In this document: piece by piece, positions 1-26,330 of the stretch
Layout: every line of letters starts with the position of its first letter
Numbering within the stretch: the first letter of the stretch is position 1
Origin: Bacteroidales bacterium
Lineage (GTDB): Bacteria > Bacteroidota > Bacteroidia > Bacteroidales > P3
DNA length: 64,000 nucleotides
Direction: 5' to 3'
Assembly: GCA_030523765.1 (NCBI GenBank)
Contig: JAUNHX010000005.1
Location: 5,566 to 69,565 of the forward strand
Program-made: the position numbers and the translations under genes
Notes under the pieces: model-generated
Told to the model about the DNA's origin: nothing
The model's database searches: none
The model's input: only the letters and a program-made list of their open reading frames with translations

Positions 1-275
1 GGAACACTACTGGCATGTGTGCTGGCGAGTTTGCCCTCAATCAGATCCTGATGGGTGGTATCATGCTGGGTGCTTGCTTCATGGCTACCGATATGGTGAC
101 GTCGCCTATGGCTAAGACGGGTCAGCTGGTGTTCGGCTTTGGCTGCGGATTGCTCACTATCATCATCCGTCGTTGGGGTGCCTATCCCGAGGGTGTATCG
201 TTCGCTATCCTGCTTATGAACTCCATTACGCCGCTGCTGAACCGCTGGTTCCAACCCAAGCGTTTTGCCTGCTAA
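1..275 (+). CDS. rnfD: Rnf electron-transport complex subunit D, C-terminal fragment (gene begins upstream of window)
   Basis: The frame is open from the window edge to TAA 273-275. The sequence ...[13 protein letters not shown]...[20 protein letters not shown] is a typical RnfD/NqrB C-terminus. It is followed directly by rnfG and rnfE. Confidence 0.8.
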
Positions 276-317
276 GGTGTTAACTCGAATTACTAATCAC
301 GTAAAAGAAATAAGATT

Positions 318-884
318 ATGGCAAAGAAAGCTGAATCTACATTGATAAATATGCTCCTCTCGCTAACTATCATCGCGGTGGTGGCTGGAGCTGTGTTGGC
401 GCTGGTGAGCGGCGTTACGGCCGATCCTATCGCTAAGGCTGAACAAGCTAAAACGGAGAATGCTATCAAGGCTGTGCTTCCTGAGTTCGATCATCTCGAA
501 ACGAAGGATATCGATGGTGTGGCCTGCAATATGGCTTATACTGCCGATAATAGTTTGGTGGGTATCGCTGTGCCTGCTACCTCGAAGAAGGGCTTTGGTG
601 GCGACTTGGGTATCATGTTCGGTTTTGATGCCGAAGGCAATATCTCTGGCTACCAGGTGCTCAAAACGGCCGAAACGCCCGGTTTGGGTGCTAAGGCTTC
701 CGAATGGTTCCAGAAGGGTGGCAAGGGTGATGTGGTAGGAAAGAATCCTAACGCCAACAACCTTACCGTTAGCAAAGATGGTGGTGAGGTGGATGCCATC
801 AGCGGATCTACTATCACTTCGCGTGCCTTCTGTGACGCTATTGCTATTGCATACGAACTTTATAAGAAAGGAGTGAACGAATAA
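318..884 (+). CDS. rnfG: Rnf complex subunit G (FMN-binding)
   Basis: 188 aa with an N-terminal TM helix and the FMN-attachment-type motif SGSTITSRA. It sits between rnfD and rnfE. Confidence 0.8.
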   Translation: MAKKAESTLINMLLSLTIIAVVAGAVLALVSGVTADPIAKAEQAKTENAIKAVLPEFDHLETKDIDGVACNMAYTADNSLVGIAVPATSKKGFGGDLGIMFGFDAEGNISGYQVLKTAETPGLGAKASEWFQKGGKGDVVGKNPNANNLTVSKDGGEVDAISGSTITSRAFCDAIAIAYELYKKGVNE

Positions 885-1483
885 TGAAAGCTTCCGACAT
901 CATTAAAAATGGTTTAATCAAAGAGAACCCCACTTGGGTACTCATCTTGGGTATGTGCCCCACGTTGGCTACTACCACTTCGGCTGTGAATGGTCTCTGT
1001 ATGGGATTGGCTACTACTTTCGTGCTGATGTGCTCCAATTCCGTTATCTCCCTCCTCAAGTCGATGATCCCCGATAAGGTGCGTATCCCCGCCTTTATCG
1101 TTATCATCGCTTCGTTCGTGACCATCGTGCAATTGGTTATGCAGGGTTTCTTGCCCGACCTATATGAGAGTCTCGGTCTCTTCATCCCCCTCATTGTGGT
1201 GAACTGCATCGTGCTAGGTCGTGCTGAAGCTTTCGCTTCGAAGAACAACCTCTGGTTCTCGTTCCTCGATGGTGTATTTATGGGTCTCGGCTTTACTTGG
1301 GCTCTTACCCTTCTGGGTATGGTCCGCGAGCTGTTGGGTACGGGCTGCATCTTCGGTCATAGCCTTATTGGTGGTGCCGATGGTATGCTCCTCTTTATCC
1401 TTCCTCCAGGCGGTTTCCTCTGCTTGGGTCTTTTGATGGCTTGGATTAATCACTTGAGAAATAAATCTAAAGCTACTAATTAA
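884..1483 (+). CDS. rnfE: Rnf complex subunit E
   Basis: 199-aa polytopic membrane protein with LGMCPTLA, IPLIVVNCIVLGRAEAFA and ILPPGGF motifs, collinear with E. coli RsxE as I recall it. Its start overlaps the rnfG stop by 1 nt (TAATG). Confidence 0.85.
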   Translation: MKASDIIKNGLIKENPTWVLILGMCPTLATTTSAVNGLCMGLATTFVLMCSNSVISLLKSMIPDKVRIPAFIVIIASFVTIVQLVMQGFLPDLYESLGLFIPLIVVNCIVLGRAEAFASKNNLWFSFLDGVFMGLGFTWALTLLGMVRELLGTGCIFGHSLIGGADGMLLFILPPGGFLCLGLLMAWINHLRNKSKATN

Positions 1484-1572
1484 GTTTTTTAACAATAACG
1501 ATGAAACTATTTGGGATTCTCAAACGTCTACATCGTCGAAATAATAAAGAAGTGTTGAACAATTAAAATTAG

Positions 1573-2070
1573 ATGACAATGAAAAGAACTGTTATTGTAA
1601 TGATGATGATCTGCTTTGCAGGAATCGGCCTTCGGGTGCAAGCCCAGTCTACGGCTGTGGATTGCGATGCGCTCATCCTTCCTCGTTATAACAACGATTC
1701 GACGGTGCTAGAGATGTTGGTTCCAGAAAAGTACGAGTGGCTCTGTACCTATGCACACAATGCGCTTTATCTGACCAATACGGCTCCTCGCGATGCTGCC
1801 GTACACAACATTAGTGAACTTCGTTGTTATGCTACCAACCAAAAGTTGCCCGACAATTATGTTGTCGACCTCAACTCGTTTAGTGTCTATGCTTACAACT
1901 TCTCCGACTTCTTCTACCAACACAATGGCCGCGAGGTTTATTTCCGTGTGGGGAACGAAGGCAACCAGTATCTTGTGGCTCGTGCTCCTAGCGAAGCGCT
2001 GAAGATGGCCGATGATGCTGTGGCTGCTGGTAACGGTATCGGAGGTGGCCACGCTACGGAACAACGCTAG
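1573..2070 (+). CDS. Secreted hypothetical protein, 165 aa (copy 1)
   Basis: ATG start with a signal peptide MTMKRTVIVMMMICFAGIGLRVQAQ. I recognise no family motif. The gene lies 72 nt upstream of the T9SS cargo gene. Confidence 0.7.
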   Translation: MTMKRTVIVMMMICFAGIGLRVQAQSTAVDCDALILPRYNNDSTVLEMLVPEKYEWLCTYAHNALYLTNTAPRDAAVHNISELRCYATNQKLPDNYVVDLNSFSVYAYNFSDFFYQHNGREVYFRVGNEGNQYLVARAPSEALKMADDAVAAGNGIGGGHATEQR

Positions 2071-2142
2071 TGCAATCAATAATGGCTATCGCAAAGTTAA
2101 GAAAACATATATATGCATTTCACAATTATAAAGATTAAGGTC

Positions 2143-5100
2143 ATGAAAAAGATACTCGTCATGCTCGCTCTTATTACCGTCGGCTTCATCGGTCAGGTAT
2201 ATGCCCAAGGTGGTATTACTCAGGTCTACCTGAATGCCACCACCAATGGAACTACCTACACGGTGCCCGATGAGGGTATATACCTCAATAGTGATAACGG
2301 AGGCGTTGGTGGCCACTATGTAGCTGGTACCGACTACTCTATCACCGTTGAGGGTACATGTACCGGTTTGAACCATATGGCTCTTATTTTTGAACGTTTC
2401 AACATCGCTCCAGAGGATACGCTGTATATCTATGATGGCCCCAGCACTTCATCGGTGCTTATCATGAAATCCAACAACAACTATAATCCGCTGGCTAGTC
2501 AGACGGTTTATGCATCGTCGTTGAATACTTCCAATCAGTTGACTATCCGTCTAAAAGCTAATTCAAGCAATGGTACGGGTTTCACCTGCTTGGTGGGCTG
2601 CCGATTCCCCTGCGAGACGGTGACGCCAGTAATTGATAGTTTCTACTATAAGACCATCAACGGTCAGATTGTAGATACCTGCTATATCCGCAACTTCACT
2701 ACTACTGAACAGGTGGCTACAGCGATAGATTCTACGTTGACTGGTTATGATACCAATGGTGCTCCTATCTACTCCTATGATACCACTTGGACTAATCAGG
2801 ACAACTATTTCCGCGGTGTAACGCTTTGTGTGGGTGAGGGTGTGATCTTTAACGGTCATGGTGAATATACGCAGAATTATGGTGCTTATACCCCTTCCGA
2901 TATGTCGTCGATCTTCACCTGGTCGCTCGGTAACGGTGAGGTGGTCGATGAGGTAGGTCTCCGTCAGGTGGCTGCCTACTATCGCGATCTTGACTGCTAT
3001 GATGTGATTTTGAGTATTGAGGATGAACGTGGTTGTAAGTCTACTCTCCTCGAAACGGTACGTGTCCGTTTGGCTCAGAATCCTATCAAGACACTCTTCG
3101 ATTTGCAGACAATGTGTAATACCGACTCGCTGTTGGTTAACGTAGGTTACGAGGGTGAGAATGGTACTATTACTCTGAAGAAGATTGAATTTGAGAAAAC
3201 AAAGACGCAGGTTAACAATGTGCGTACCTTCGTACCCGATGGTAAATGTCCTCCCGATAATAGCGACTGCTTCACGGCAAAGGTTAATTTCGATGACTTT
3301 CCCGCTGGACGTGCTGTTACCGACAAGGGCGATATCTGCTCGATCTGTGTGAATGCTGAACACTCCTTTATGGGTGACTGTACCTATGCTATTATCTGCC
3401 CCAGTGGCTCGAAAGGCTATCTGAAACGTAAATCGCAAGTTGAAGGCGAAGATCCCTATACTGGTGGCGGTAGCGGAAAATTCCTTGGTATCCCCTATGG
3501 TGGTAACAACGATGGTGCTTGGGATAACTCAAGTGAAAAATGCGACTCGCTGGCCAATATGTATGGCTATGGATGGAACTACTGCTGGACTCGTAACCCT
3601 GAATATAGCATCGTTACCTATCAGGGCGCTCAGGCTGGTATCGCTGTTCCTGATCATACGGTTACCACTTCGCATACCTTCGGTGTCATCCCTGCTCCTT
3701 TCTATCGTGCTGGTGAAACATGCGGTACAGTGACCTCGAGCAATACGCAGGATTCGAGCGACCACGATGGTAAATCGGGTTACTATCTTCCTGCTTCCGA
3801 CTTCAATGATCTAGTAGGCTGCCCGCTCAATGGTGAATGGGGTATGGAGTTCTGCGATACGTGGGGCGCTGATAATGGCTGGATCTTCTCCTTCTCGCTT
3901 GATATCTGTGGTATCTCCTCGGGTGCTGGTTGCGAATATCAGGTGGGTCTCGACTCGCTGGTGTGGCGTCCCGATTCCTCTTATGGCGACTTCCTCTTGG
4001 GTCATTATCGTGGTGCTACTGTTACGCGTCGCGATAGTGTGAACGCTTGGATTGCTACCCCCGATACAGCTGGTCTCTTTGGTATCCATGTAACCCTCTA
4101 CGATGAGTTTGGCTGCGTTTGGGATACAATGACTCGTATCACTACCGTTTGGGCTCCTATGCCTGAACTGGGTGACGATACTATCCTTTGCGACTTCCAG
4201 ACGATGATGCTCGATGCTTCGGATGCTCACACTGCTATGACTAACCAGTCGTTCAAGTGGGAACCCTTTGGCGATTCGGTGGCTGTGATTGAGACCCGAA
4301 ACAATATGGGATCGGATATCTTATATAAGGTGGAGGTGCAGAACTACCAGCATGATGTGACTTGTATTACCCGCGACTCGATCCGTGTGAAGGTGAAACC
4401 GCAACCGCGTCCTAACTTTGACCCAGGTGTTTACCCACTAGAGGGCTGCGAGCCGTTTATTATCAATATCACCAACAATACGCCTAATGCTGATAAGCAT
4501 ATCTGGGTGTGGGGCGATGGCGATACCTCTTTCACTGCAGAACCAACTCACGCTTATGCTGCAGGTCACTATGACTTCAAGTACTACGCTGAGAGCGATG
4601 CTGGATGTAAGGACTCGCTAGTATACACTAACCTGATTACTGTCTTCTCTAGTCCTGTGGCTAAATTCTCATGGGAGCCTGTCAATCCTACAGTGATGCA
4701 TCCTGAGGTGCAGTTCATTAATAAGACTGAGCCGCAAGCTGATACCAATAAGTATTACTGGGAGATTCAGTACGATCGCGATAATCATCTCTCTTATCAT
4801 ACAATGACTGATGTCAATCCTGTATTCCAGTGGCAGACCGATGGTGAGGATATCTCGGGTACCTATATTGCTCGCCTCATCGCTAAGACCAACAATTTGG
4901 GTCCCTCGGGTAATGTGGTTGAATGCCGCGATACCATCGAGAACTCAATCCTCTTGGTTAACGACTTCCTCCAGTTCCCCACAGTAGTTACCCCCAATGG
5001 TGATGGTATCAACGATGTGTTCGAAATCAAGAACCTGGTGAACGGTTTGGGTTACCCCAACAACAGTTTGGCTATCTACAACCGCTGGGGTAAGCGTGTA

Positions 5101-5250
5101 TACTTCAAGGAGAATATCAGCAGCGATGACGATTGGTGGGATCCCGCTAAGGACAATATCCCTGATGGTACCTATTTCTGGCGCTTCTCGGGTAAGGGTT
5201 ACTTAGGCAATATCCAACGTACCGGTTCGGTCGAGGTACTCTCTAACTAG
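2143..5250 (+). CDS. Large secreted multidomain protein with T9SS type B C-terminal sorting domain (copy 1)
   Basis: I chose ATG 2143 because it gives the signal peptide MKKILVMLALITVGFIGQVYAQ; the ORF-track start 2113 adds 10 aa. There is a PKD-type motif WVWGDGDTSF..PTHAY. The C-terminus FPTVVTPNGDGINDVF..IYNRWGKRVY..GTYFWRF matches the gliding-motility/T9SS type B CTD (TIGR04131/CHU_C type). CUB-like and P-domain-like segments are inferred only. Confidence 0.85.
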   Translation: MKKILVMLALITVGFIGQVYAQGGITQVYLNATTNGTTYTVPDEGIYLNSDNGGVGGHYVAGTDYSITVEGTCTGLNHMALIFERFNIAPEDTLYIYDGPSTSSVLIMKSNNNYNPLASQTVYASSLNTSNQLTIRLKANSSNGTGFTCLVGCRFPCETVTPVIDSFYYKTINGQIVDTCYIRNFTTTEQVATAIDSTLTGYDTNGAPIYSYDTTWTNQDNYFRGVTLCVGEGVIFNGHGEYTQNYGAYTPSDMSSIFTWSLGNGEVVDEVGLRQVAAYYRDLDCYDVILSIEDERGCKSTLLETVRVRLAQNPIKTLFDLQTMCNTDSLLVNVGYEGENGTITLKKIEFEKTKTQVNNVRTFVPDGKCPPDNSDCFTAKVNFDDFPAGRAVTDKGDICSICVNAEHSFMGDCTYAIICPSGSKGYLKRKSQVEGEDPYTGGGSGKFLGIPYGGNNDGAWDNSSEKCDSLANMYGYGWNYCWTRNPEYSIVTYQGAQAGIAVPDHTVTTSHTFGVIPAPFYRAGETCGTVTSSNTQDSSDHDGKSGYYLPASDFNDLVGCPLNGEWGMEFCDTWGADNGWIFSFSLDICGISSGAGCEYQVGLDSLVWRPDSSYGDFLLGHYRGATVTRRDSVNAWIATPDTAGLFGIHVTLYDEFGCVWDTMTRITTVWAPMPELGDDTILCDFQTMMLDASDAHTAMTNQSFKWEPFGDSVAVIETRNNMGSDILYKVEVQNYQHDVTCITRDSIRVKVKPQPRPNFDPGVYPLEGCEPFIINITNNTPNADKHIWVWGDGDTSFTAEPTHAYAAGHYDFKYYAESDAGCKDSLVYTNLITVFSSPVAKFSWEPVNPTVMHPEVQFINKTEPQADTNKYYWEIQYDRDNHLSYHTMTDVNPVFQWQTDGEDISGTYIARLIAKTNNLGPSGNVVECRDTIENSILLVNDFLQFPTVVTPNGDGINDVFEIKNLVNGLGYPNNSLAIYNRWGKRVYFKENISSDDDWWDPAKDNIPDGTYFWRFSGKGYLGNIQRTGSVEVLSN

Positions 5251-5288
5251 ACTCTTGAATTAAAAGTATCGCATTCATAAATGCTGAT

Positions 5289-5322
5289 GGAGGACCCTTC
5301 TTGTAAGGGTCCTCCTTTTTTT
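5289..5322 (+). terminator. Rho-independent terminator after the cargo gene (copy 1)
   Basis: Perfect 11-bp stem ggaggaccctt/aagggtcctcc, 5-nt loop, then T7. It lies 39 nt after the stop codon. Confidence 0.85.
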
Positions 5323-5330
5323 GTATAAGG

Positions 5331-5427
5331 GCTTCTTTTTATCCTCCCTTCGGGCGGTTTCCTCTGCTTGGGTCTTTTAATGGCTTAGATTAATCACTTG
5401 AGAAACAAATCTAAATCAACTAATTAA
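5331..5427 (+). pseudogene. rnfE: Relic of the last 31 codons of rnfE, carried along by the duplication
   Basis: Aligns codon-for-codon with 1388-1483. There are 10 differences in 96 nt, including an in-frame TAG at 5386-5388 where rnfE has TGG. No upstream coding part is present. Confidence 0.85.
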
Positions 5428-5517
5428 GTTTTTTTAACAGTGACTATGAAACTATTTGGGATTCTCAAACGTCTACATCGTCGAAATAATAAAGAAGTGT
5501 TGAACAATTAAAATTAG

Positions 5518-6015
5518 ATGACAATGAAAAGAACTGTTATTGTAATGATGATGATCTGCTTTGCAGGAATCGGCCTTCGGGTGCAAGCCCAGTCTACGGC
5601 TGTGGATTGCGATGCGCTCATCCTTCCTCGTTATAACAACGATTCGACGGTGCTAGAGATGTTGGTTCCAGAAAAGTACGAGTGGCTCTGTACCTATGCA
5701 CACAATGCGCTTTATCTGACCAATACGGCTCCTCGCGATGCTGCCGTACACAACATTAGTGAACTTCGTTGTTATGCTACCAACCAAAAGTTGCCCGACA
5801 ATTATGTTGTCGACCTCAACTCGTTTAGTGTCTATGCTTACAACTTCTCCGACTTCTTCTACCAACACAATGGCCGCGAGGTTTATTTCCGTGTGGGGAA
5901 CGAAGGCAACCAGTATCTTGTGGCTCGTGCTCCTAGCGAAGCGCTGAAGATGGCCGATGATGCTGTGGCTGCTGGTAACGGTATCGGAGGTGGCCACGCT
6001 ACGGAACAACGCTAG
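5518..6015 (+). CDS. Secreted hypothetical protein, 165 aa (copy 2)
   Basis: Protein identical to 1573-2070. Confidence 0.7.
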   Translation: MTMKRTVIVMMMICFAGIGLRVQAQSTAVDCDALILPRYNNDSTVLEMLVPEKYEWLCTYAHNALYLTNTAPRDAAVHNISELRCYATNQKLPDNYVVDLNSFSVYAYNFSDFFYQHNGREVYFRVGNEGNQYLVARAPSEALKMADDAVAAGNGIGGGHATEQR

Positions 6016-6087
6016 TGCAATCAATAATGGCTATCGCAAAGTTAAGAAAACATATATATGCATTTCACAATTATAAAGATTAAGGTC

Positions 6088-9000
6088 ATGAAAAAGATAC
6101 TCGTCATGCTCGCTCTTATTACCGTCGGCTTCATCGGTCAGGTATATGCCCAAGGTGGTATTACTCAGGTCTACCTGAATGCCACCACCAATGGAACTAC
6201 CTACACGGTGCCCGATGAGGGTATATACCTCAATAGTGATAACGGAGGCGTTGGTGGCCACTATGTAGCTGGTACCGACTACTCTATCACCGTTGAGGGT
6301 ACATGTACCGGTTTGAACCATATGGCTCTTATTTTTGAACGTTTCAACATCGCTCCAGAGGATACGCTGTATATCTATGATGGCCCCAGCACTTCATCGG
6401 TGCTTATCATGAAATCCAACAACAACTATAATCCGCTGGCTAGTCAGACGGTTTATGCATCGTCGTTGAATACTTCCAATCAGTTGACTATCCGTCTAAA
6501 AGCTAATTCAAGCAATGGTACGGGTTTCACCTGCTTGGTGGGCTGCCGATTCCCCTGCGAGACGGTGACGCCAGTAATTGATAGTTTCTACTATAAGACC
6601 ATCAACGGTCAGATTGTAGATACCTGCTATATCCGCAACTTCACTACTACTGAACAGGTGGCTACAGCGATAGATTCTACGTTGACTGGTTATGATACCA
6701 ATGGTGCTCCTATCTACTCCTATGATACCACTTGGACTAATCAGGACAACTATTTCCGCGGTGTAACGCTTTGTGTGGGTGAGGGTGTGATCTTTAACGG
6801 TCATGGTGAATATACGCAGAATTATGGTGCTTATACCCCTTCCGATATGTCGTCGATCTTCACCTGGTCGCTCGGTAACGGTGAGGTGGTCGATGAGGTA
6901 GGTCTCCGTCAGGTGGCTGCCTACTATCGCGATCTTGACTGCTATGATGTGATTTTGAGTATTGAGGATGAACGTGGTTGTAAGTCTACTCTCCTCGAAA
7001 CGGTACGTGTCCGTTTGGCTCAGAATCCTATCAAGACACTCTTCGATTTGCAGACAATGTGTAATACCGACTCGCTGTTGGTTAACGTAGGTTACGAGGG
7101 TGAGAATGGTACTATTACTCTGAAGAAGATTGAATTTGAGAAAACAAAGACGCAGGTTAACAATGTGCGTACCTTCGTACCCGATGGTAAATGTCCTCCC
7201 GATAATAGCGACTGCTTCACGGCAAAGGTTAATTTCGATGACTTTCCCGCTGGACGTGCTGTTACCGACAAGGGCGATATCTGCTCGATCTGTGTGAATG
7301 CTGAACACTCCTTTATGGGTGACTGTACCTATGCTATTATCTGCCCCAGTGGCTCGAAAGGCTATCTGAAACGTAAATCGCAAGTTGAAGGCGAAGATCC
7401 CTATACTGGTGGCGGTAGCGGAAAATTCCTTGGTATCCCCTATGGTGGTAACAACGATGGTGCTTGGGATAACTCAAGTGAAAAATGCGACTCGCTGGCC
7501 AATATGTATGGCTATGGATGGAACTACTGCTGGACTCGTAACCCTGAATATAGCATCGTTACCTATCAGGGCGCTCAGGCTGGTATCGCTGTTCCTGATC
7601 ATACGGTTACCACTTCGCATACCTTCGGTGTCATCCCTGCTCCTTTCTATCGTGCTGGTGAAACATGCGGTACAGTGACCTCGAGCAATACGCAGGATTC
7701 GAGCGACCACGATGGTAAATCGGGTTACTATCTTCCTGCTTCCGACTTCAATGATCTAGTAGGCTGCCCGCTCAATGGTGAATGGGGTATGGAGTTCTGC
7801 GATACGTGGGGCGCTGATAATGGCTGGATCTTCTCCTTCTCGCTTGATATCTGTGGTATCTCCTCGGGTGCTGGTTGCGAATATCAGGTGGGTCTCGACT
7901 CGCTGGTGTGGCGTCCCGATTCCTCTTATGGCGACTTCCTCTTGGGTCATTATCGTGGTGCTACTGTTACGCGTCGCGATAGTGTGAACGCTTGGATTGC
8001 TACCCCCGATACAGCTGGTCTCTTTGGTATCCATGTAACCCTCTACGATGAGTTTGGCTGCGTTTGGGATACAATGACTCGTATCACTACCGTTTGGGCT
8101 CCTATGCCTGAACTGGGTGACGATACTATCCTTTGCGACTTCCAGACGATGATGCTCGATGCTTCGGATGCTCACACTGCTATGACTAACCAGTCGTTCA
8201 AGTGGGAACCCTTTGGCGATTCGGTGGCTGTGATTGAGACCCGAAACAATATGGGATCGGATATCTTATATAAGGTGGAGGTGCAGAACTACCAGCATGA
8301 TGTGACTTGTATTACCCGCGACTCGATCCGTGTGAAGGTGAAACCGCAACCGCGTCCTAACTTTGACCCAGGTGTTTACCCACTAGAGGGCTGCGAGCCG
8401 TTTATTATCAATATCACCAACAATACGCCTAATGCTGATAAGCATATCTGGGTGTGGGGCGATGGCGATACCTCTTTCACTGCAGAACCAACTCACGCTT
8501 ATGCTGCAGGTCACTATGACTTCAAGTACTACGCTGAGAGCGATGCTGGATGTAAGGACTCGCTAGTATACACTAACCTGATTACTGTCTTCTCTAGTCC
8601 TGTGGCTAAATTCTCATGGGAGCCTGTCAATCCTACAGTGATGCATCCTGAGGTGCAGTTCATTAATAAGACTGAGCCGCAAGCTGATACCAATAAGTAT
8701 TACTGGGAGATTCAGTACGATCGCGATAATCATCTCTCTTATCATACAATGACTGATGTCAATCCTGTATTCCAGTGGCAGACCGATGGTGAGGATATCT
8801 CGGGTACCTATATTGCTCGCCTCATCGCTAAGACCAACAATTTGGGTCCCTCGGGTAATGTGGTTGAATGCCGCGATACCATCGAGAACTCAATCCTCTT
8901 GGTTAACGACTTCCTCCAGTTCCCCACAGTAGTTACCCCCAATGGTGATGGTATCAACGATGTGTTCGAAATCAAGAACCTGGTGAACGGTTTGGGTTAC

Positions 9001-9195
9001 CCCAACAACAGTTTGGCTATCTACAACCGCTGGGGTAAGCGTGTATACTTCAAGGAGAATATCAGCAGCGATGACGATTGGTGGGATCCCGCTAAGGACA
9101 ATATCCCTGATGGTACCTATTTCTGGCGCTTCTCGGGTAAGGGTTACTTAGGCAATATCCAACGTACCGGTTCGGTCGAGGTACTCTCTAACTAG
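6088..9195 (+). CDS. Large secreted multidomain protein with T9SS type B C-terminal sorting domain (copy 2)
   Basis: Protein identical to 2143-5250. Confidence 0.85.
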   Translation: MKKILVMLALITVGFIGQVYAQGGITQVYLNATTNGTTYTVPDEGIYLNSDNGGVGGHYVAGTDYSITVEGTCTGLNHMALIFERFNIAPEDTLYIYDGPSTSSVLIMKSNNNYNPLASQTVYASSLNTSNQLTIRLKANSSNGTGFTCLVGCRFPCETVTPVIDSFYYKTINGQIVDTCYIRNFTTTEQVATAIDSTLTGYDTNGAPIYSYDTTWTNQDNYFRGVTLCVGEGVIFNGHGEYTQNYGAYTPSDMSSIFTWSLGNGEVVDEVGLRQVAAYYRDLDCYDVILSIEDERGCKSTLLETVRVRLAQNPIKTLFDLQTMCNTDSLLVNVGYEGENGTITLKKIEFEKTKTQVNNVRTFVPDGKCPPDNSDCFTAKVNFDDFPAGRAVTDKGDICSICVNAEHSFMGDCTYAIICPSGSKGYLKRKSQVEGEDPYTGGGSGKFLGIPYGGNNDGAWDNSSEKCDSLANMYGYGWNYCWTRNPEYSIVTYQGAQAGIAVPDHTVTTSHTFGVIPAPFYRAGETCGTVTSSNTQDSSDHDGKSGYYLPASDFNDLVGCPLNGEWGMEFCDTWGADNGWIFSFSLDICGISSGAGCEYQVGLDSLVWRPDSSYGDFLLGHYRGATVTRRDSVNAWIATPDTAGLFGIHVTLYDEFGCVWDTMTRITTVWAPMPELGDDTILCDFQTMMLDASDAHTAMTNQSFKWEPFGDSVAVIETRNNMGSDILYKVEVQNYQHDVTCITRDSIRVKVKPQPRPNFDPGVYPLEGCEPFIINITNNTPNADKHIWVWGDGDTSFTAEPTHAYAAGHYDFKYYAESDAGCKDSLVYTNLITVFSSPVAKFSWEPVNPTVMHPEVQFINKTEPQADTNKYYWEIQYDRDNHLSYHTMTDVNPVFQWQTDGEDISGTYIARLIAKTNNLGPSGNVVECRDTIENSILLVNDFLQFPTVVTPNGDGINDVFEIKNLVNGLGYPNNSLAIYNRWGKRVYFKENISSDDDWWDPAKDNIPDGTYFWRFSGKGYLGNIQRTGSVEVLSN

Positions 9196-9233
9196 ACTCT
9201 TGAATTAAAAGTATCACATTCATAAATGCTGAT

Positions 9234-9268
9234 GGAGGACCCTTCTTGTAAGGGCCCTCCTTTTTTTT
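9234..9268 (+). terminator. Rho-independent terminator (copy 2, one stem mismatch, T8)
   Basis: ggaggaccctt/aagggccctcc has an A.C mismatch at 9255, followed by eight T. Confidence 0.75.
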
Positions 9269-9321
9269 GTATAAGGGCTGATGTGGACAATAGGGTTCAT
9301 TGGATTTATTGTTTCATAGGA

Positions 9322-9365
9322 GTATAACAACAAGAGCGGGATAAACCTTTCGGCTTGTCCCGCTC
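9322..9365 (-). terminator. Probable aroA terminator
   Basis: 8-bp stem gagcggga/tcccgctc (9334-9341 / 9358-9365). On the minus strand it is followed by ttgttgtt. It lies 27 nt after the aroA stop. Confidence 0.55.
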
Positions 9366-9391
9366 ATAGGGTGTAAGATTTGTTTTATCGG

Positions 9392-10585
9392 TTAATCGAG
9401 GGTGCGTCCCAGCATCTCGTAGAAGTTGGGGAACGATTTGGAGACTACCTCGGGATTGAGAATCTCTAAATTGGGGAAGAGGGGCTTGAGTGTGGAGAAG
9501 GCCATAGCGATACGATGATCGTTGTGTGAGTCGATAGGCTCTTTATACTCCATCGTGGAGGGGTGTATCAACATAGTGTCATCGATCAACTCTACGTTGA
9601 CTCCTAGCTTGCGGAGTTCGGTAGAGACGGCTTCGATACGATCGCTCTCTTTGATACGTAGATTGGTCAGTCCGGTCAGTTTGGTTTCAATCCCTTTGGC
9701 TGCACAAGCTACTGCTACCGAGGGGAAGAGGTCGGGGGCATAGAAGAAGTCGTACTCAAAATAGTCGACAGCATCACCATCGCGATCAATCTCTATGGCT
9801 TGACCTACAGTCCGTGAGCGAATACCTAGTTGTGCATAAATATCGTATACCGCGCTGTCGCCCTGCATGGAGGGATAGGCGAGACCCGACATATGGAGGT
9901 TTAGCGGTTTGTCGCTCAAAAGGGTTACGTTGTAGAAATATGAGGCAGCCGACCAATCTTTCTCAATCGAATACATCTCTATTTGCGGGAGGGTGTGAGT
10001 GACAAAGTAGGCTGGAGGATTGCCCTTATAGACATATTCGATGCCGCTCTGATCGAGAGCATCGAGGGTCATACGGATATAGGGGGCTGATGCATCGTTG
10101 CCAACCACCTCTACTGCCATTCCAGTAGGCATAGCTGCAGCAGCGAGTAGGAGTGCCGATACGAACTGGCTACTCTGTGTGCCATCGATCTTGATACGAG
10201 TCTCGGTAGGCACAACGCCATCGATCTTCAGCGGCAAGTATCCTTCGTTTTCCATATAATCGATTTTGCATCCTACAGAACGTAGTGCGTCGACCAGCGG
10301 CCCTATAGGACGTTGACACAACCGAGGACTACCCGTGACGGTGTGGGTACCAGGCGTTACGGCGAGCAGAGCTACCAGGAAGCGGGCAGCGGTACCAGCG
10401 TCGCGACAGTCGTAGGTGTGTCGGCGTCCCAATTTAGCCTGACGGAGCAGTCGTTTGAAGAGCTGCGTATCGTCGGCCGACGAAAGGTTCTTGATTCGGA
10501 TGCCATTTTGGCTCATGAAATCGAGCACCAACCAGCGGTTGGAGATGCTTTTCGATGAGGGTAGAGTAATTTGTATTGCTTCCAT
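9392..10585 (-). CDS. aroA: 3-phosphoshikimate 1-carboxyvinyltransferase (EPSP synthase)
   Basis: 397 aa with LPSSKSISNR, DCRDAGTAARFL, QSSQFVSALLLAA and RIKESDRI motifs characteristic of AroA. Confidence 0.9.
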   Translation of the reverse strand: MEAIQITLPSSKSISNRWLVLDFMSQNGIRIKNLSSADDTQLFKRLLRQAKLGRRHTYDCRDAGTAARFLVALLAVTPGTHTVTGSPRLCQRPIGPLVDALRSVGCKIDYMENEGYLPLKIDGVVPTETRIKIDGTQSSQFVSALLLAAAAMPTGMAVEVVGNDASAPYIRMTLDALDQSGIEYVYKGNPPAYFVTHTLPQIEMYSIEKDWSAASYFYNVTLLSDKPLNLHMSGLAYPSMQGDSAVYDIYAQLGIRSRTVGQAIEIDRDGDAVDYFEYDFFYAPDLFPSVAVACAAKGIETKLTGLTNLRIKESDRIEAVSTELRKLGVNVELIDDTMLIHPSTMEYKEPIDSHNDHRIAMAFSTLKPLFPNLEILNPEVVSKSFPNFYEMLGRTLD

Positions 10586-10747
10586 TGTGTTTACTTTACT
10601 TATCTTTGTCTATGTACTTTTGTTCTGATGCAGAAAAATAGTATTTGACTATTGATGATGATGATTGTTTCGTGTATTGCTTTGCTTATGGTTTGTTATC
10701 AATGCTTTATATGTATAAGGTTGATGTAGTATGGTGAGTTATGGTAT

Positions 10748-12040
10748 TTATACATCGATATCGTATTCGCCAATCTTGCGATAGAGGGTGCGTTCGCTGA
10801 TACCTAACTCGCGGGCTGAAGTGCGGCGATTGCCCTTGTTGCGTTCTAGTGCTGCCTGTATGGCGTTGCGCTCAATCTCGGCCAGCGTGAGTGGGGCAGA
10901 GGGTACCACTTTCTCCTCTTCGTCAACCACATTGGCGTACTGCACCTCCTCTTCGTCCTCGTATTTGCTCTTTACTGGGTTGGTGTTGATGCGAATGGTG
11001 TGGTCATTGACTTTATCGGCATAATGGTTGTTGGGTAGCATCACATCTTCGTGTCCATAATCTGGTTCTATCATATTGTTGGAGTGGACAATCTTCGCCA
11101 TATTCGATACCGCTTGTTGCAGTTCGGTAATCTCGTTGCGCATTTTAAGGATGGTGCTCTGCAGTTCGAACGAATCCATCGATATCCGTTCGTTCGTAGT
11201 GTTGTTGCCCTGATAGATGGTGGGCATCAAATCTTGTGGCTCGAAGTTGAGGTAGCTTTGAAGTATAGCTTTGCTTATCTCGCGCGTCTCCTCTAGGTAG
11301 GATATCTGTTCGGTAACGTTCTTCAGTTCGCGAATGTTTCCTCTCCAGGGGTAGGTCTTGATATATTCCTTGCCGTCGTCAGTAAGACGTACTGGTTTCA
11401 TATTGCCTGTATACTTGCTTACTATATCGCTAGCAAACTTGCTGAAAAGAAGAGGTATATCATCTTTGCGTTCGCGCAAGGGTGGAATATAGATCGATAT
11501 CTGATTGAGTCGGTAGTAGAGATCCTCGCGGAATTTTCCATGATTGATAGCCTCCATGATGTCTACATTGGTGGCAGCCACAATGCGCACATCTACTTTG
11601 CGCGGCATATTCTCGCCCATAGGAAGAATCTCGTGGTTTTCGAGCACACGCAGCAGTTTCACTTGCATGTTGAGTGGCAGTTCGCCCACTTCATCGAGGA
11701 ATATGGTGCCGCCGTTGGCCTCTTCGAAATAGCCCTTGCGGTCGCGGTCGGCTCCAGTGAAGGCTCCTTTCTTGTGTCCGAACAGTTCGCTTTCTATAGT
11801 GCCTTCAGGGAGAGCACCACAGTTTACAGCAATCAGTTTCTTTGATTTGCGCCCGCTGTTTTCGTGGATGATTTTCGAGAATACATCCTTACCCACACCG
11901 CTTTCACCAGTGATGAAGATGCTCAGCTTCGAATCGGCAACCTGGAGCGCTTTGTAGAGCGCTAGGTTCAGCTGAGGGTCGTAGCCGATAATATCATGTT
12001 TGGCTTTGACGGTTTCTATTTCGTGTTCGCGATCTTTCAT
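10748..12040 (-). CDS. Sigma-54-dependent transcriptional activator (AAA+ domain plus C-terminal Fis-type HTH; no N-terminal sensory domain)
   Basis: Walker [16 protein letters not shown] loop (KKGAFTGAD), ELFGH, and a C-terminal [26 protein letters not shown]. The AAA+ core starts about 15 residues after the Met. Confidence 0.85.
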
Positions 12041-14951: not shown

Positions 14952-17900
14952 ATGAAAAGATATAAAAGACAGATAATCCTCTTGTTCCTCCTGTTGCTTT
15001 CGTCTGCTGCCTGGAGCCGTACTCACCGCGATTCGTTAGGTGTGGGTCATCGTATGCTTTTTTCTGAAAACAAGGGACAATGGGAGAATCCTGTGCTTTT
15101 TAAATCGGATCTTCGTGTAGCTACTCTTTTCTTGGAACGCGATTGCTTTACCCTCTTGTTGGTTCATCCCGACTGTTGGTCGCAGCATCCGCGTCCCACC
15201 CGTTTCAAGAGCTATCGTACTCATGCATATAAAGTTCATTTTGTTGGTTCTAAGGTCGATAAGGTGATGGGTGAAGAACGGGAAGATACTTACGAGAATT
15301 ATTATCTTGGCAACGATCCTAGTCGCTGGTGTAGTGGTGTAGGTGTATATGGTTCAGTCTATTATGATCAGTTGTGGCGCGGTATCGATATGCGTGTATA
15401 CTCTGCGCAGGGTGCTATGAAATACGATTTTCTTGTGGCCCCAGGTGCTGATGTATCGCAGATTGCGTTGCGCTACGAGGGTGTTGATGGCATCCGAATC
15501 AAAGAGGGTAACCTTCGCATCAAGACCTCTGTAATGGAGGTAGTTGAGTTAGCCCCTTATGCTTATCAAATCAAAGGCGATGACACTATCGAAGTGGCTG
15601 CCCGCTATGTTCTGCAAGATCGTGAGGTGCGACTTTCGTTGGGTTCATACGATAGTAGTCTCCCGCTTGTTATCGATCCCTATCTCTATTTCTCAACCTA
15701 TACTGGTTCGACTGCCGACAATTGGGGCACTACTTCGGCCTACGATTCATATAAAAATACCTATACCTCGGGACTCGTGTTTGGTGATGGTTATCCCACC
15801 TCGGTGGGTAGCTATGACGGCACCTACAACGGCAACGCTGACATCGGCATCTTCAAGTTCGATACCAACGGCACTCATCGACTTTATGCTACCTATCTGG
15901 GTGGCGGCAATGCCGATATGCCTCACTCGATGTTCGTCAACGCTTTCGATGAGTTGGTGGTGTTCGGCACTACCGGTTCGAGCAATTTCCCTACCACTGA
16001 GGGTGCCTACGATCGAGTCTTCTCGGGAGGCAATGCTCTGCAGTATGAAGGATCATCTACAATCAATTTCCCCAATGGTAGCGATATCTTCCTTTGTCGT
16101 TTTAACGCTGATGGCTCTCAACTGCAAGCCTCTACCTATGTGGGTGGGTCGGGCAATGATGGTATGAACTACGAAACATGGTTCACCTCTTATGATTTAA
16201 TCATGCTGGGCAACGACTCGCTCTATTATAACTATGGTGATGGTGCTCGCGGCGAACTGATGATCGATGATCTCAACAATGTCTATGTAGGCTCTACTAC
16301 CCGCTCCACAGATTTCCCTACTACCTCAGGTGCTATTCAGACCTATGCCAATGGTGGAAGAGAGGGTGTGGTGTTTAAGATCGATTACAATCTTCATAAC
16401 ATGATGTGGTGCACCTATTTGGGTGGTGTGGGCAACGATGCTGTCTATTCGGTCGATGTTGATACTAGTTATAATGTGGTTGTGTGTGGAGGTACCACCT
16501 CGGGTGCGCTCTTCCCCACTACTCCTAATAGTTACAAACCCAACTTTAGCGGCGGTTCGTCTGATGGCTTTGTGGCCAAAATCAGTCGCAACGGCACCAC
16601 CTTGATGGCTAGTACTTTCTTCGGCAGCAGTGCCTACGATCAGTGCTATTTTGTCCGTGTGGGTAAACAGAACGATGTCTTCATCTTTGGACAGACCACA
16701 GCTCCCGATAGTACCCTTATATACAATGCTGCCTATAATACCCCCAATAGCGGACAGTTCCTTGCTCGCCTCAAGCCCAACCTTGACACTCTTAAATGGT
16801 CAACTGTCTTTGGTACCGGTAGTGGTGAACCCAACCTTTCACCTACCGCTTTCGCTGTCGATATATGCAATCGTATCTATCTAGCAGGATGGGGAAGGAA
16901 GTTCTGTGGATACTATCTGCAAGGGGCTACTATCCCTTGGAACACCTATGGTACTGCAGGCATGCAAGTTACTGCCGATGCTTATCAGAATACCACTGAT
17001 GGACAAGATTTCTATGTAATGACAATGGATACTAGTGCTAACGCACTGATCTATGCCTCCTTCTTTGGTGAGCAGCATTCTGAGAGTGTTTATGGTGGAC
17101 AAGATCATGTGGATGGTGGTACCAGTCGTTTCGATCGTTTGGGCACCCTCTATGAGAGTGTATGCGCTAGCTGTGGAGGCTATCAATCTTTTCCCACCAC
17201 CTCGGGTGCTTGGTCTAATAGTAATAACGCTAGCAACTGCAACAATGCGCTGTTCCGTCTCAACCTTTCGAGTGATTTCCCTGTGGCTGAGTTTGTTCCC
17301 CCTTCGGCAGGATGTGCTCCTCTCACTATAGAATTCCATAACACTGGAAGGGGCGAGTCGTATCAGTGGGACTTCGGTGATGGCTCTGATACTTCTGCTG
17401 CTGTTAACCCCACTCATACTTTCAGTAACCCAGGCAATTATACCATTCGCCTAGTGGCCCGTATGGCTGAAGGCTGCCGCACCACCGATACGATGTACCA
17501 CACTCTCCGTGTGCTGGGCGATACTAGTTATTGGATTGACACTATCGATTTTTGTCCTGCCGACCAACCGCAAATTGGATTGCATCCTCAGATGGGTTGT
17601 TCTTACCAATGGATTGAAGGAGAGGTGAGCGATAGCACTGTAGCTAACCCCTATGTTACGGAAGGTGGAGTATATACCCTTTTGGTAACGACCGACAATT
17701 GTGTTGATACCATCCATCAGATGGTCCGTATTGGCACTACTGCTTTTACCCTTGCGGGCGACACTTCGGGTTGCACTTCGCCTATCAATCTCAGTGCCAC
17801 TTTTGGTCCTGATATTGATCACGTGATTTGGTCGCATAGCTCCTCTTTGTCCGACACTATTAATAGTGGCAACCTCTTAGCAGGGAGTCTTCGCCTCGAT

Positions 17901-19196
17901 CTTACTCAATCGTGCTGGATTTATTTATATGTTGAAGATCGGTTAGGATGTCGCGGACTCGATAGTCTCCATATCCAATTCTATAACATTATGGATACCC
18001 TCATCATCAAGTCGGTATCCTGTCCTGGCGATTGTAATGGTTCGGTCATCGCTCTTCCTTCTAGTTATGCGGTAGCCCCGTATGGTTATGAGTGCGATGG
18101 ACAGATGCTTGCTGATTCTTTGGCTGATGGACTCTGTCTGGGCAATCACACCTATATCTTTTCCGATGCTAACGGCTGTTCTATCGAACGCACTTTTCCG
18201 ATTGCGGATGCTGCCGTTCCCAATATTCAAACCCAAATAACTCATGTCCTTTGTCATGAGTATGCTACTGGTGCTATCAATATCAGCATTGGCGATACGG
18301 GTAGTTATACTTTCTACTGGTACGATGATGAGTCTACCACCTCTTCGCGAACGGGTCTCAATCCTGGCACTTATATCTGTCGTATCACCAGTCCGAACGG
18401 CTGTATCTATTACGATACTGCTATCGTTATTGAGAATGCTGATATGCAAGTGTCTACAACTCATATCGACAATACTTGTCACGACTATTGTTCGGGTAGC
18501 GCCCTAGCTACAGCGGCTGGAGGTACGGCCCCCTACACTTATGAGTGGAGCAATGGTGAAACCACCGCTCAGGCCGATGCTCTCTGTGAAGGGATGGTCA
18601 CCGTATGGGTGACCGATGCTACTGGTTGTCGTGTGCACGATTCGGTAGCTATCGCCACTGTCTCCTCTTACGATTCCATCGAGGTGTGGGCTAACGACGA
18701 TACGGTTTATTCTGACCAAATCACTGCCGTTCATGCTACCTCTATTCCCGGTGCTACTTATAGTTGGCAGCCCCCTCAGCTTTTGGCTAATCCCTACAGC
18801 AGCAACAGTGTAACGGTGCCTTTGCAAGAAACCACCACCTTTATATGTACTGTTGTTGACAGCATTGGTTGTGAACATATCGATTCGGTGAAGGTGGTTT
18901 GCAATGTTATCAACTGTGGTGAACCTAATATCTTTATCCCTAACACCTTTACTCCCAACGGTGATGGAGTAAACGACCGTCTTTGCGTTACGGGCGAAGA
19001 TATTGTAGGTTATCATCTCTGTATATTCTCCCGTTGGGGTGAGTTGGTGTTCGAAACGAATAATCTTGACGATTGTTGGGACGGAACTTATAAGGGTAAG
19101 CCCTGTATGGCAGGCGTTTATGTTTATCATTGCGATATCTACTGTACTGCCAATCACGAAGCTTCCCTTAAAGGCGACATAACGCTGATACGATAA
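14952..19196 (+). CDS. Giant secreted beta-propeller(SBBP)/PKD/SprB-like repeat protein with T9SS type B C-terminal sorting domain
   Basis: Signal peptide MKRYKRQIILLFLLLLSSAAWS. Repeated Y(A/C)TYLGG.GND motifs indicate SBBP-type propeller repeats. PKD motif WDFGDGSDTS..NPTHTF. Cys-rich repeats. The C-terminus IPNTFTPNGDGVNDRL..IFSRWGELVF..WDGTYKGK..GVYVYH is a type B CTD. Confidence 0.85.
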   Translation: MKRYKRQIILLFLLLLSSAAWSRTHRDSLGVGHRMLFSENKGQWENPVLFKSDLRVATLFLERDCFTLLLVHPDCWSQHPRPTRFKSYRTHAYKVHFVGSKVDKVMGEEREDTYENYYLGNDPSRWCSGVGVYGSVYYDQLWRGIDMRVYSAQGAMKYDFLVAPGADVSQIALRYEGVDGIRIKEGNLRIKTSVMEVVELAPYAYQIKGDDTIEVAARYVLQDREVRLSLGSYDSSLPLVIDPYLYFSTYTGSTADNWGTTSAYDSYKNTYTSGLVFGDGYPTSVGSYDGTYNGNADIGIFKFDTNGTHRLYATYLGGGNADMPHSMFVNAFDELVVFGTTGSSNFPTTEGAYDRVFSGGNALQYEGSSTINFPNGSDIFLCRFNADGSQLQASTYVGGSGNDGMNYETWFTSYDLIMLGNDSLYYNYGDGARGELMIDDLNNVYVGSTTRSTDFPTTSGAIQTYANGGREGVVFKIDYNLHNMMWCTYLGGVGNDAVYSVDVDTSYNVVVCGGTTSGALFPTTPNSYKPNFSGGSSDGFVAKISRNGTTLMASTFFGSSAYDQCYFVRVGKQNDVFIFGQTTAPDSTLIYNAAYNTPNSGQFLARLKPNLDTLKWSTVFGTGSGEPNLSPTAFAVDICNRIYLAGWGRKFCGYYLQGATIPWNTYGTAGMQVTADAYQNTTDGQDFYVMTMDTSANALIYASFFGEQHSESVYGGQDHVDGGTSRFDRLGTLYESVCASCGGYQSFPTTSGAWSNSNNASNCNNALFRLNLSSDFPVAEFVPPSAGCAPLTIEFHNTGRGESYQWDFGDGSDTSAAVNPTHTFSNPGNYTIRLVARMAEGCRTTDTMYHTLRVLGDTSYWIDTIDFCPADQPQIGLHPQMGCSYQWIEGEVSDSTVANPYVTEGGVYTLLVTTDNCVDTIHQMVRIGTTAFTLAGDTSGCTSPINLSATFGPDIDHVIWSHSSSLSDTINSGNLLAGSLRLDLTQSCWIYLYVEDRLGCRGLDSLHIQFYNIMDTLIIKSVSCPGDCNGSVIALPSSYAVAPYGYECDGQMLADSLADGLCLGNHTYIFSDANGCSIERTFPIADAAVPNIQTQITHVLCHEYATGAINISIGDTGSYTFYWYDDESTTSSRTGLNPGTYICRITSPNGCIYYDTAIVIENADMQVSTTHIDNTCHDYCSGSALATAAGGTAPYTYEWSNGETTAQADALCEGMVTVWVTDATGCRVHDSVAIATVSSYDSIEVWANDDTVYSDQITAVHATSIPGATYSWQPPQLLANPYSSNSVTVPLQETTTFICTVVDSIGCEHIDSVKVVCNVINCGEPNIFIPNTFTPNGDGVNDRLCVTGEDIVGYHLCIFSRWGELVFETNNLDDCWDGTYKGKPCMAGVYVYHCDIYCTANHEASLKGDITLIR

Positions 19197-26053: not shown

Positions 26054-26119
26054 AGTTCTTTCTCCTATTAATAATGTAAATAAAAAAATAAAGTCGGACA
26101 TGCCTCTTGTCCCCGAAAG

Positions 26120-26320
26120 ACGTTGTCCTCATATTTTGTTAAGGCAGGTCTTCTGACTTGTTCTGGGGCGGGCCGCCTTCCCAACCGAGGAGGGTTAGTG
26201 GCTGAGCGTTTAGTTTTTTTTCGGAGTATCGCCCACCCTTTGTTAAGAACTTACAGCTACGGGCATAGTCTATGATTCTCACATAGTTCCCTATTAATCG
26301 CGCGGACTAGTTTGCGAACC
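26120..26320 (-). promoter_or_regulatory. Cobalamin (B12) riboswitch in the nrdDG leader
   Basis: The minus-strand RNA contains AAUAGGGAAC, GUGAGAAUC, GCCCGUAGCUGUAAG, GCCACU...GGGAAGGC and the B12 box AGUCAGAAGACCUGCC (forward 26143-26158). These appear in the canonical order. A short hairpin plus U-run follows (about 26080-26112). Confidence 0.85.
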
Positions 26321-26330
26321 TTAACAGTTG

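What the first reader, a model, noticed from the sequence alone, without database searches (positions are those of the whole stretch)
1387..9279. Near-perfect 3.9-kb head-to-tail duplication of a secreted-protein / T9SS-cargo module directly behind rnfE
The period is 3945 bp (ATG 1573 vs 5518; ATG 2113 vs 6058; stop 5250 vs 9195). Every ORF-track translation in copy 1, on both strands and in several frames, is letter-identical to its partner in copy 2. By eye, 1501-5270 equals 5446-9215. No transposase, integrase, IS ends or tRNA flank the unit, and the novel junction shares only GCT. That fits unequal crossover or slippage rather than a mobile element. A 3.8-kb perfect direct repeat is a very good RecA substrate. 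Copy number of this surface-protein module could therefore vary in a population, acting as a gene-dosage or amplification switch for a T9SS cargo. This would be undescribed for this gene family as far as I know.
Basis: seen in the sequence. Interest (0 to 1): 0.72.

Follow-up and report, generated by a model that had tools for sequence, protein, structure and literature searches.

The report
Tandem duplication of surface-protein gene pair
A rumen Bacteroidales genome carries two head-to-tail copies of a 3.9-kb two-gene unit encoding a secreted surface protein, where other strains of the species carry one; this is an ordinary gene duplication with identical interiors, not a new kind of switch.

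Summary
Window 1387-9279 is a direct tandem duplication. Positions 1501-5270 equal 5446-9215, which is 3,770 bp with no mismatch. The join uses a 3-nt microhomology, GCT.

Each unit holds the last 94 nt of rnfE, an intergenic region, a 165-aa secreted protein, a 1,045-aa all-beta T9SS type-B cargo and a terminator. There is no IS, integrase or tRNA.

Copy 2 therefore begins with a diverged rnfE fragment that carries a stop codon.

The window matches a GenBank MAG that lists the genes twice (MDO4217011-014). More than 30 contigs of the same species (about 99% identity, many samples) and all related species show one copy. None contains the junction.

Copy-2-type tail alleles, including the stop codon, also occur attached to intact rnfE in other strains, with variable breakpoints.

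Best reading: a real, non-mobile duplication formed by illegitimate recombination. It is polymorphic in the species, and homologous recombination keeps its interior identical. The interior identity could instead be an assembler product. A dosage switch is not supported. Interest is low.

The parts
884..1483 (+). rnfE (199 aa). Its last 94 nt plus stop codon lie inside the duplicated unit.
   Evidence: Pfam Rnf-Nqr 1e-67 and TIGR01948 rnfE 270 bits.
1387..1389 (.). GCT microhomology at the left parent site of the join.
   Evidence: Alignment of the three boundary regions; coordinates printed.
1390..1500 (+). Left edge of copy 1: the functional rnfE 3' tail and the start of the intergenic region. 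It differs from the copy-2 edge.
   Evidence: 13 substitutions and 1 indel in 112 columns vs 5334-5445. It is identical to the tail in same-species contig L045.
1501..5270 (+). Perfectly identical interior, copy 1.
   Evidence: 3,770-bp run with 0 mismatches at offset 3945.
1573..2070 (+). Small secreted protein, copy 1 (165 aa, or 163 aa from the ATG at 1579). It has an N-terminal signal-like segment and no Pfam or NCBIfam family.
   Evidence: It is the same sequence as P0135 = MDO4217011.1 and MDO4217013.1. It is conserved next to the cargo gene in relatives.
2113..5250 (+). T9SS type-B cargo, copy 1 (1,045 aa): a string of all-beta Ig/PKD-like domains plus a CHU_C C-terminal domain.
   Evidence: Pfam CHU_C 63.8 bits and PKD_4 39.6 bits. 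AF2 model with pLDDT 85.9, all beta. Best structural matches are GhpA fragments and cadherin/Ig ectodomains.
5289..5315 (+). Intrinsic-terminator hairpin of copy 1: an 11-bp perfect stem followed by T7.
   Evidence: The T at 5310 is private to this copy and completes the stem.
5271..5333 (+). Right edge of copy 1, ending at the join point (GCT 5331-5333).
   Evidence: G at 5271, T at 5310 and a T7 run differ from copy 2 and from all single-copy strains.
5334..5445 (+). Left edge of copy 2: a non-functional rnfE 3' fragment (TGG to TAG stop, Pro to Ser, Ala to Ser) plus the start of the intergenic region.
5446..9215 (+). Perfectly identical interior, copy 2.
5518..6015 (+). Small secreted protein, copy 2.
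   Evidence: P0135 carries two NCBI accessions.
6058..9195 (+). T9SS type-B cargo, copy 2.
   Evidence: P0121 = MDO4217012.1 and MDO4217014.1, identical to the window protein from Met11.
9216..9279 (+). Right edge of copy 2, with the weaker terminator (an A.C mismatch in the stem). It ends at GCT 9277-9279 and matches the sequence of single-copy strains.
9392..10585 (-). aroA, the right-flank gene that follows the single copy in all same-species contigs.
   Evidence: TIGR01356 291.6 bits; synteny.

Best explanation
This is a genuine chromosomal tandem duplication of a 3,944-3,946-bp unit. The unit comprises the rnfE 3' tail, an intergenic region, the small secreted protein, the T9SS type-B cargo and a terminator.

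How it formed (inferred): one illegitimate, microhomology-mediated join (GCT) linked the sequence just after the cargo terminator to a site inside the 3' end of rnfE. No mobile element was involved.

Population state (shown): the two-copy state is a minority structural variant of a rumen Bacteroidales species. Other strains of the species and the related species sampled carry one copy.

Age and upkeep (inferred): the junction is not new, because about 90 nt around it carry changes seen in no other strain. Homologous recombination between the copies, by gene conversion or unequal crossing-over, keeps the 3.77-kb interiors identical. The same recombination can collapse the array to one copy. It can also carry copy-2 tail alleles, including a stop codon, into the functional rnfE.

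Function: any effect on cargo dosage is a passive consequence. It is not a dedicated switch.
For: Structure: one search shows 3,770 bp identical, and searches show the GCT join and the diverged edges (15 of 176 columns vs 0 of 3,770, Fisher p = 3e-21).

The junction carries private alleles on both sides, so it cannot be a simple mis-join of this genome's own sequence. A k-mer graph cannot join on a 3-nt overlap.

The deposited GenBank MAG lists both gene pairs.

One copy elsewhere: 15 related species representatives have one copy. The sister species contig L058 has one copy. Same-species contigs at 98.4-99.5% identity from many samples also have one copy.

Paralogues are identical to each other, yet each differs from every full-length orthologue by 0.9-1.6%. 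This is the signature of concerted evolution.

The edge divergence (13 of 112) exceeds the within-species fourfold-site divergence of 1.8-2.5% (binomial p = 5e-6).

Copy-2 tail alleles occur in a real rnfE context with different left breakpoints. They are always on the side nearer the interior in L042 (from 1435) and L048/L055 (from about 1468), and they form a patch in L017-type contigs. This fits recombination tracts that start in the identical interior.

Logan contigs L043 and L044 start exactly at 1501, the point where the two left edges converge. L044 is 100% identical to the window.

No IS, tRNA or plasmid signal was found.
Against: No reads were available, so depth and junction-spanning support are untested.

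The junction was found in no other contig and not in JGI metagenomes.

If the MAG came from a short-read graph assembler that traversed a loop, the two interiors are identical by construction. Identity would then say nothing about gene conversion.

Copy-2-type tail alleles exist in the population attached to rnfE. Part of the edge divergence may therefore be an old haplotype brought in by inter-strain recombination, rather than time elapsed since the duplication. This weakens the age argument.

L042 could be a MEGAHIT chimera.
Confidence: 0.58

Rival explanations
1. The assembly is partly responsible. The junction sequence is real in some genomes of the sample. However, the two-copy contig with identical interiors was produced by the assembler or by polishing, through a loop traversed twice, popped bubbles, or a mixture of strains. 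True copy number, and true identity between copies, may differ. In the extreme case the junction belongs to a co-occurring strain or to a 3.9-kb circular recombination product.
For: The boundaries of perfect identity fall exactly at the first differing bases, as a graph assembly would give. All other assemblies of the species are short-read and show one copy. Contig L044, which is identical to the window, ends at 3633, which implies a variant inside the interior in that sample. No repeat elsewhere in the window shows that the assembler can resolve long repeats.
Against: A junction with private substitutions on both sides and only a 3-nt overlap cannot be created by an assembler. The only linear arrangement that uses that junction is a tandem array of at least two copies. 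The sharp step from about 10% to 0% divergence must be real for at least one k-mer length on each side.
Confidence: 0.2
2. The duplication is recent, which would explain the identical interior without gene conversion. The edge differences then have other causes. One is a cluster of mutations made during the break-repair or template-switch event that formed the join. The other is a later homologous-recombination import from another strain that replaced rnfE and the copy-1 tail up to position 1500.
For: Alleles private to the junction lie within about 90 nt of the join and are mostly C to T on one strand. The copy-1 tail is identical to a population haplotype (L045). The distal part of the copy-2 tail resembles haplotypes seen in L042, L048 and L055. 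The region is therefore clearly recombining among strains.
Against: It needs two extra events. The copy-2 tail keeps outgroup-like states at four sites where all A-type tails share derived states, which points to an old lineage rather than fresh mutations. A premature stop in rnfE (L042) is more easily explained as coming from a decayed fragment than as a functional allele.
Confidence: 0.15
3. This is the first reader's idea: a selected, reversible gene-dosage or amplification switch for a T9SS cargo, in which copy number cycles through 1, 2 and more copies in the population as an adaptive mechanism.
For: One-copy and two-copy states both exist in one species. A 3.77-kb perfect repeat is a recombination substrate (established knowledge). 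Mosaic tails are compatible with repeated expansion and collapse.
Against: Only one two-copy assembly was found, and no state with more than two copies. There is no evidence of an expression or fitness effect. Copy 2 sits behind a strong terminator, and no promoter was identified. Any tandem duplication shows the same instability without being a switch.
Confidence: 0.05

Closest known systems
Spontaneous tandem gene duplication-amplification in bacteria, with RecA-independent formation at short or no homology and homologous-recombination-dependent loss or expansion (Salmonella and E. coli models). PMC11111574 discusses join points and microhomology borders.
   Same: Head-to-tail direct repeat of a few kb. 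Novel join point with 3-nt microhomology. No mobile element. Absent from most close relatives.
   Different: Laboratory duplications are young and identical throughout. Here the roughly 175 nt around the join differ by 8.5% from their parent sequences, so the join is either old or has been recombined since. Instability and selection were not measured.
Concerted evolution of bacterial paralogues by gene conversion, for example tufA/tufB and rRNA operons (from general knowledge, not tested here against those cases).
   Same: The paralogues are identical to each other but differ from orthologues in strains about 99% identical. Divergence is confined to the repeat edges. Mosaic tracts are visible at the edge.
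   Different: The copies here are adjacent, so unequal crossing-over and collapse are alternatives to non-reciprocal conversion. The identity could also come from the assembly.
T9SS type-B C-terminal-domain cargo proteins such as SprB and PG1035, which are anchored through PorP/SprF-like partners (PMC9143113).
   Same: A CHU_C / type-B C-terminal domain, an N-terminal signal-like segment and a long all-beta repetitive ectodomain. The best structural matches include the Aureispira grappling-hook protein GhpA.
   Different: No PorP/SprF-like gene is adjacent. The conserved neighbour is an uncharacterised 165-aa secreted protein. The pair is conserved directly downstream of rnfE across a whole clade.

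Membership tests
Tandem segmental duplication (duplication-amplification class) | Two adjacent direct copies in head-to-tail order | tested here: met
   Offset 3945, with 3,770 bp identical plus diverged edges.
Tandem segmental duplication (duplication-amplification class) | A single novel join point formed from the right end and the left end of the unit, with little or no homology | tested here: met
   The join is GTATAAGGGCT|TCTTTTTATCC, and GCT is shared by both parent sites.
Tandem segmental duplication (duplication-amplification class) | A single-copy state at the same locus in close relatives | tested here: met
   More than 30 same-species contigs and 16 related species have one copy between rnfE and the downstream genes.
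Tandem segmental duplication (duplication-amplification class) | Twofold read depth and reads that cross the join | not testable with these tools
   No reads are available. The junction 22-mer is absent from JGI metagenome contigs.
IS- or transposon-mediated amplification / mobile element | Flanking IS copies, transposase or integrase, terminal inverted repeats, or a tRNA target | tested here: not met
   No Pfam family matches any extra ORF. There are no inverted repeats of 80 nt or more and no other repeats, no tRNA and no plasmid match.
Concerted evolution by gene conversion or unequal crossing-over | Paralogues more alike than orthologues of close strains, divergence confined to the edges, and mosaic tracts | tested here: inconclusive
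   The pattern is present. However, identity could be an assembler product, and the mosaics could come from inter-strain recombination.
T9SS type-B cargo | A C-terminal type-B sorting domain | tested here: met
   Pfam CHU_C scores 63.8 bits against a cut-off of 27. NCBIfam TIGR04131 scores 33.7 bits, just under its cut-off of 35.
T9SS type-B cargo | An adjacent PorP/SprF-like outer-membrane partner | tested here: not met
   The neighbours are rnfE, the 165-aa protein with no family, and aroA.
Programmed copy-number or phase-variation switch | High-frequency reversible change with a phenotypic consequence | not testable with these tools
   Only static assemblies are available. One two-copy record was found, and no record with more than two copies.

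The most novel reading that the evidence does not exclude
The two-copy state is an old, recombinationally homogenised duplication that has persisted in part of a rumen Bacteroidales species and repeatedly collapses to one copy. Each collapse or conversion can move alleles of the decayed rnfE fragment, including a premature stop, into the functional rnfE. A copy-number-variable adhesin locus would then be visibly reshaping the end of an energy-conservation gene in natural populations.
Probability: 0.2. Interest if true: 0.45.

Novelty: new member of a known kind. Interest (0 to 1): 0.25.

Why it matters
It is a clean natural example of a bacterial tandem duplication that is polymorphic within one species. 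Its join point and edge mosaics record its recombination history. It also serves as a caution for annotation and pangenome work, because short-read assemblies of the same species all show one copy and often break at this locus. It does not reveal a new mechanism. The biological effect of a second copy of this uncharacterised T9SS surface protein is unknown.

Tried and rejected
- Mobile element: rejected. There is no transposase, integrase, tRNA, inverted repeat or plasmid similarity.
- RNA element in the unit: no Rfam match in 1-12000, even at E = 1.
- Search for the junction elsewhere: the exact 22-mer is absent from JGI metagenome contigs. Junction and private-allele k-mers are absent from all fetched loci.
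- Protein scan of JGI contigs: it gave only relatives at 55% identity or less.
- Look-ups of truncated cargo proteins P0131 and P0133, and of the common small-protein variant P0139, gave only rnfE-linked single-copy contexts.
- No ORF within the junction was long enough for an exact-protein look-up.
- Provenance of the samples through the literature: no paper mentions the SRR253223xx runs.
- Polarising the right-edge differences with the sister species failed, because its terminator region is too diverged.
- Dating the duplication from tail divergence alone: abandoned as unsafe once copy-2-type alleles were found attached to intact rnfE.
- A canonical promoter for copy 2 was not found. The sigma-70 scan is not enriched over shuffles, and Bacteroidota promoters are not covered by the tool.

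Full report
**1. Observation**

A comparison of the window with itself at offset 3945 gives one uninterrupted identical run of 3,770 bp, 1501-5270 = 5446-9215. The repeat finder also reports a second segment, 1387-1490 vs 5331-5434, at 90% identity and offset 3944.

Aligning the three boundary regions and the edges pairwise gives the full anatomy:
- GCT sits at 1387-1389, 5331-5333 and 9277-9279.
- Copy 1 is 1390-5333 and copy 2 is 5334-9279.
- The left edges (1390-1500 vs 5334-5445) differ by 13 substitutions and 1 indel in 112 columns.
- The right edges (5271-5333 vs 9216-9279) differ by 2 substitutions and 1 indel in 64 columns.
- In total the edges differ at 15 of 176 columns, against 0 of 3,770 in the interior (Fisher p = 3e-21).

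The diverged edges are new information.

**2. Content of the unit**

- rnfG (318-884) and rnfE (884-1483) precede the unit. The unit starts 97 nt before the end of the rnfE stop codon.
- It contains an 89-nt intergenic region.
- It contains a 165-aa protein with a signal-like N-terminus and no Pfam or NCBIfam family.
- It contains a 1,045-aa protein with a PKD domain and a CHU_C type-B T9SS C-terminal domain. TIGR04131 scores just under its cut-off.
- It ends with a hairpin terminator.

An AlphaFold2 model of the large protein (79-sequence alignment, pLDDT 85.9) is an all-beta string of Ig/PKD-like domains. Its best PDB matches are fragments of the Aureispira grappling-hook protein GhpA, followed by cadherin and Ig ectodomains. 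It is most likely a cell-surface adhesin-like protein. That function is inferred, not shown.

No IS, integrase, tRNA, inverted repeat, Rfam family or plasmid similarity is associated with the unit.

aroA (9392-10585, minus strand) and a sigma-54 activator follow the unit.

**3. Provenance**

The cargo protein is identical, from Met11, to P0121, which carries two NCBI accessions, MDO4217012.1 and MDO4217014.1. The small protein equals P0135 = MDO4217011.1 and MDO4217013.1, annotated as 'hypothetical protein Q4D03_02425', on a 134,309-bp contig of a Bacteroidales MAG. The duplication is therefore present in the deposited record. I could not determine the sequencing technology.

**4. Relatives**

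In 15 GTDB species representatives from rumen or gut Bacteroidales MAGs (42-84% aa identity), the order rnfG-rnfE-(small protein)-cargo is conserved, with one cargo gene per locus. The sister species contig L058 shows rnfB-C-D-G-E, small protein, cargo, then aroA, with one copy.

Within the same species (98.4-99.5% nt identity):
- Contigs L017, L018 and L021-L024 run uninterrupted from the rnf genes through one copy to dnaG.
- L019, L020, L025-L030 and L032 cross the right boundary straight into aroA.
- L045-L055 and L057 cross from rnfE into the small gene.
- None contains the junction or its private alleles.

Many of these are Logan contigs, built from near-unitigs (my understanding of how Logan assembles). 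Such contigs would break at a well-covered branch. The one-copy state is therefore real and predominant. Two copies are seen only in this MAG.

**5. What the edges say**

The copy-2 rnfE fragment carries TGG to TAG, Pro to Ser and Ala to Ser changes. It is not coding.

The right edge of copy 2 equals that of single-copy strains. The right edge of copy 1 has two private changes, G at 5271 and T at 5310. The second one perfects the terminator stem.

Fourfold-site divergence between the window and single-copy strains is 1.8-2.5%. The 13 of 112 differences in the left edge are significantly more than that (p = 5e-6). At four sites the copy-2 tail keeps the state of the outgroup L001, where all ordinary tails share a derived state.

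Taken alone, this indicates a junction older than the sampled strain diversity, with interiors homogenised since. The interiors are identical to each other, yet they differ from every full-length orthologue by 0.9-1.6%.

**6. A complication, and a footprint**

The small-protein look-up returned L042 (ENA ERZ27234666). In it an intact rnfE, 100% identical to window 962-1434, continues from 1435 into a copy-2-like tail. That tail includes the TAG stop and three private changes.

Contigs L048 and L055 are ordinary up to about 1467 and copy-2-like afterwards. Six L017-type contigs carry a copy-2-like patch.

Copy-2-type alleles therefore circulate in the real rnfE context, with variable left breakpoints. 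In L042, L048 and L055 the copy-2-type part lies on the side nearer the interior. This is what conversion or crossover tracts would leave if they began in the identical interior and ended in the diverged tail. It could also come from inter-strain recombination of an old haplotype, and L042 could be a chimera. Because of this, dating the event from the tail is unsafe.

What remains private to the junction is within about 90 nt of the join:
- G at 5271, T at 5310 and the T7 run on the copy-1 side.
- CTT, CTC and TCG at 5337-5356 on the copy-2 side.

These are mostly C to T changes.

Logan contigs L043 and L044 start exactly at 1501, where two left edges converge on one interior. L044 is 100% identical to the window. 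This hints that sample SRR24915812 holds both edges.

**7. Explanations**

- Best (0.58): a real, non-mobile tandem duplication made by a GCT-microhomology join. It is polymorphic in the species, and homologous recombination homogenises its interior and occasionally collapses the array.
- Rival (0.20): the junction is real, but copy number and perfect identity are assembler products.
- Rival (0.15): a recent duplication with junction-associated mutations, plus a later recombination import over the copy-1 tail.
- Rival (0.05): an adaptive dosage switch.

A pure mis-join is excluded. The junction shares only 3 nt between its parent sites, and its flanks carry private substitutions.

**8. Comparison with known systems and verdict**

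The feature has the defining sequence features of the well-known class of bacterial tandem duplications, and it shows the known pattern of concerted evolution. Read support could not be tested. It fails the tests for IS-mediated amplification. The cargo has the type-B C-terminal domain but lacks the adjacent PorP/SprF-like partner described for SprB and PG1035 (PMC9143113).

It is a new member of a known kind. Interest is low (0.25). The modest added value lies in the population-level footprints at the rnfE tail and in the warning about short-read assemblies.

Noticed in passing
window 15-1483; loci L017, L021 and L058 upstream regions: The rnf cluster reads rnfB-C-D-G-E and then stops. No rnfA homologue follows rnfE. 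In Bacteroides rnfA normally follows rnfE (from general knowledge). In this clade the small-protein and cargo pair occupies that position.
   Followed up: partly
L042 1-640 (equivalent to window 962-1600): One same-species contig has an rnfE with a premature TAG that removes the last 13 residues, using the same alleles as the copy-2 fragment of the window. The RnfE C-terminal tail is also variable in length among relatives.
   Followed up: partly
window 1383-1503 (contig starts of L027, L031, L025, L019, L043, L044, L026): Seven short-read contigs of the species begin within this 120-nt stretch at the left repeat boundary. This suggests graph branching there in many samples, from tail haplotypes or from an unassembled junction.
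   Followed up: partly
window 26126-26338 (-) and 23933-26101 (-): A cobalamin riboswitch (88 bits) lies directly upstream of an anaerobic ribonucleotide reductase gene (NRDD plus ATP-cone domains).
   Followed up: no
window 14952-19196 (+) and 19247-20101 (+): A second, unrelated T9SS type-B cargo of 1,414 aa (DUF7948, PKD, SprB repeat, CHU_C) is followed by a 284-aa ORF with no Pfam family. It is conserved next to dnaG in same-species contigs.
   Followed up: no
window 1507-1545 and 5452-5490; L001 about 2415-2450: The intergenic stretch GGGATTCTCAAACGTCTACATCGTCGAA upstream of the small gene is nearly unchanged in the sister species, although overall identity is 78%. It is not conserved in more distant relatives. 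It may be a promoter or operator that is duplicated with the unit.
   Followed up: partly
L001 6137-6164: The sister-species GTDB contig ends 27 nt after the cargo stop, at the point equivalent to the right end of the perfect interior. The longer contig L058 of that species nevertheless shows one copy.
   Followed up: yes
window 5310 vs 9255: The internal terminator of copy 1 has a private C to T change that turns an A.C mismatch into a perfect 11-bp stem. Copy 2 and all single-copy strains keep the mismatch.
   Followed up: partly
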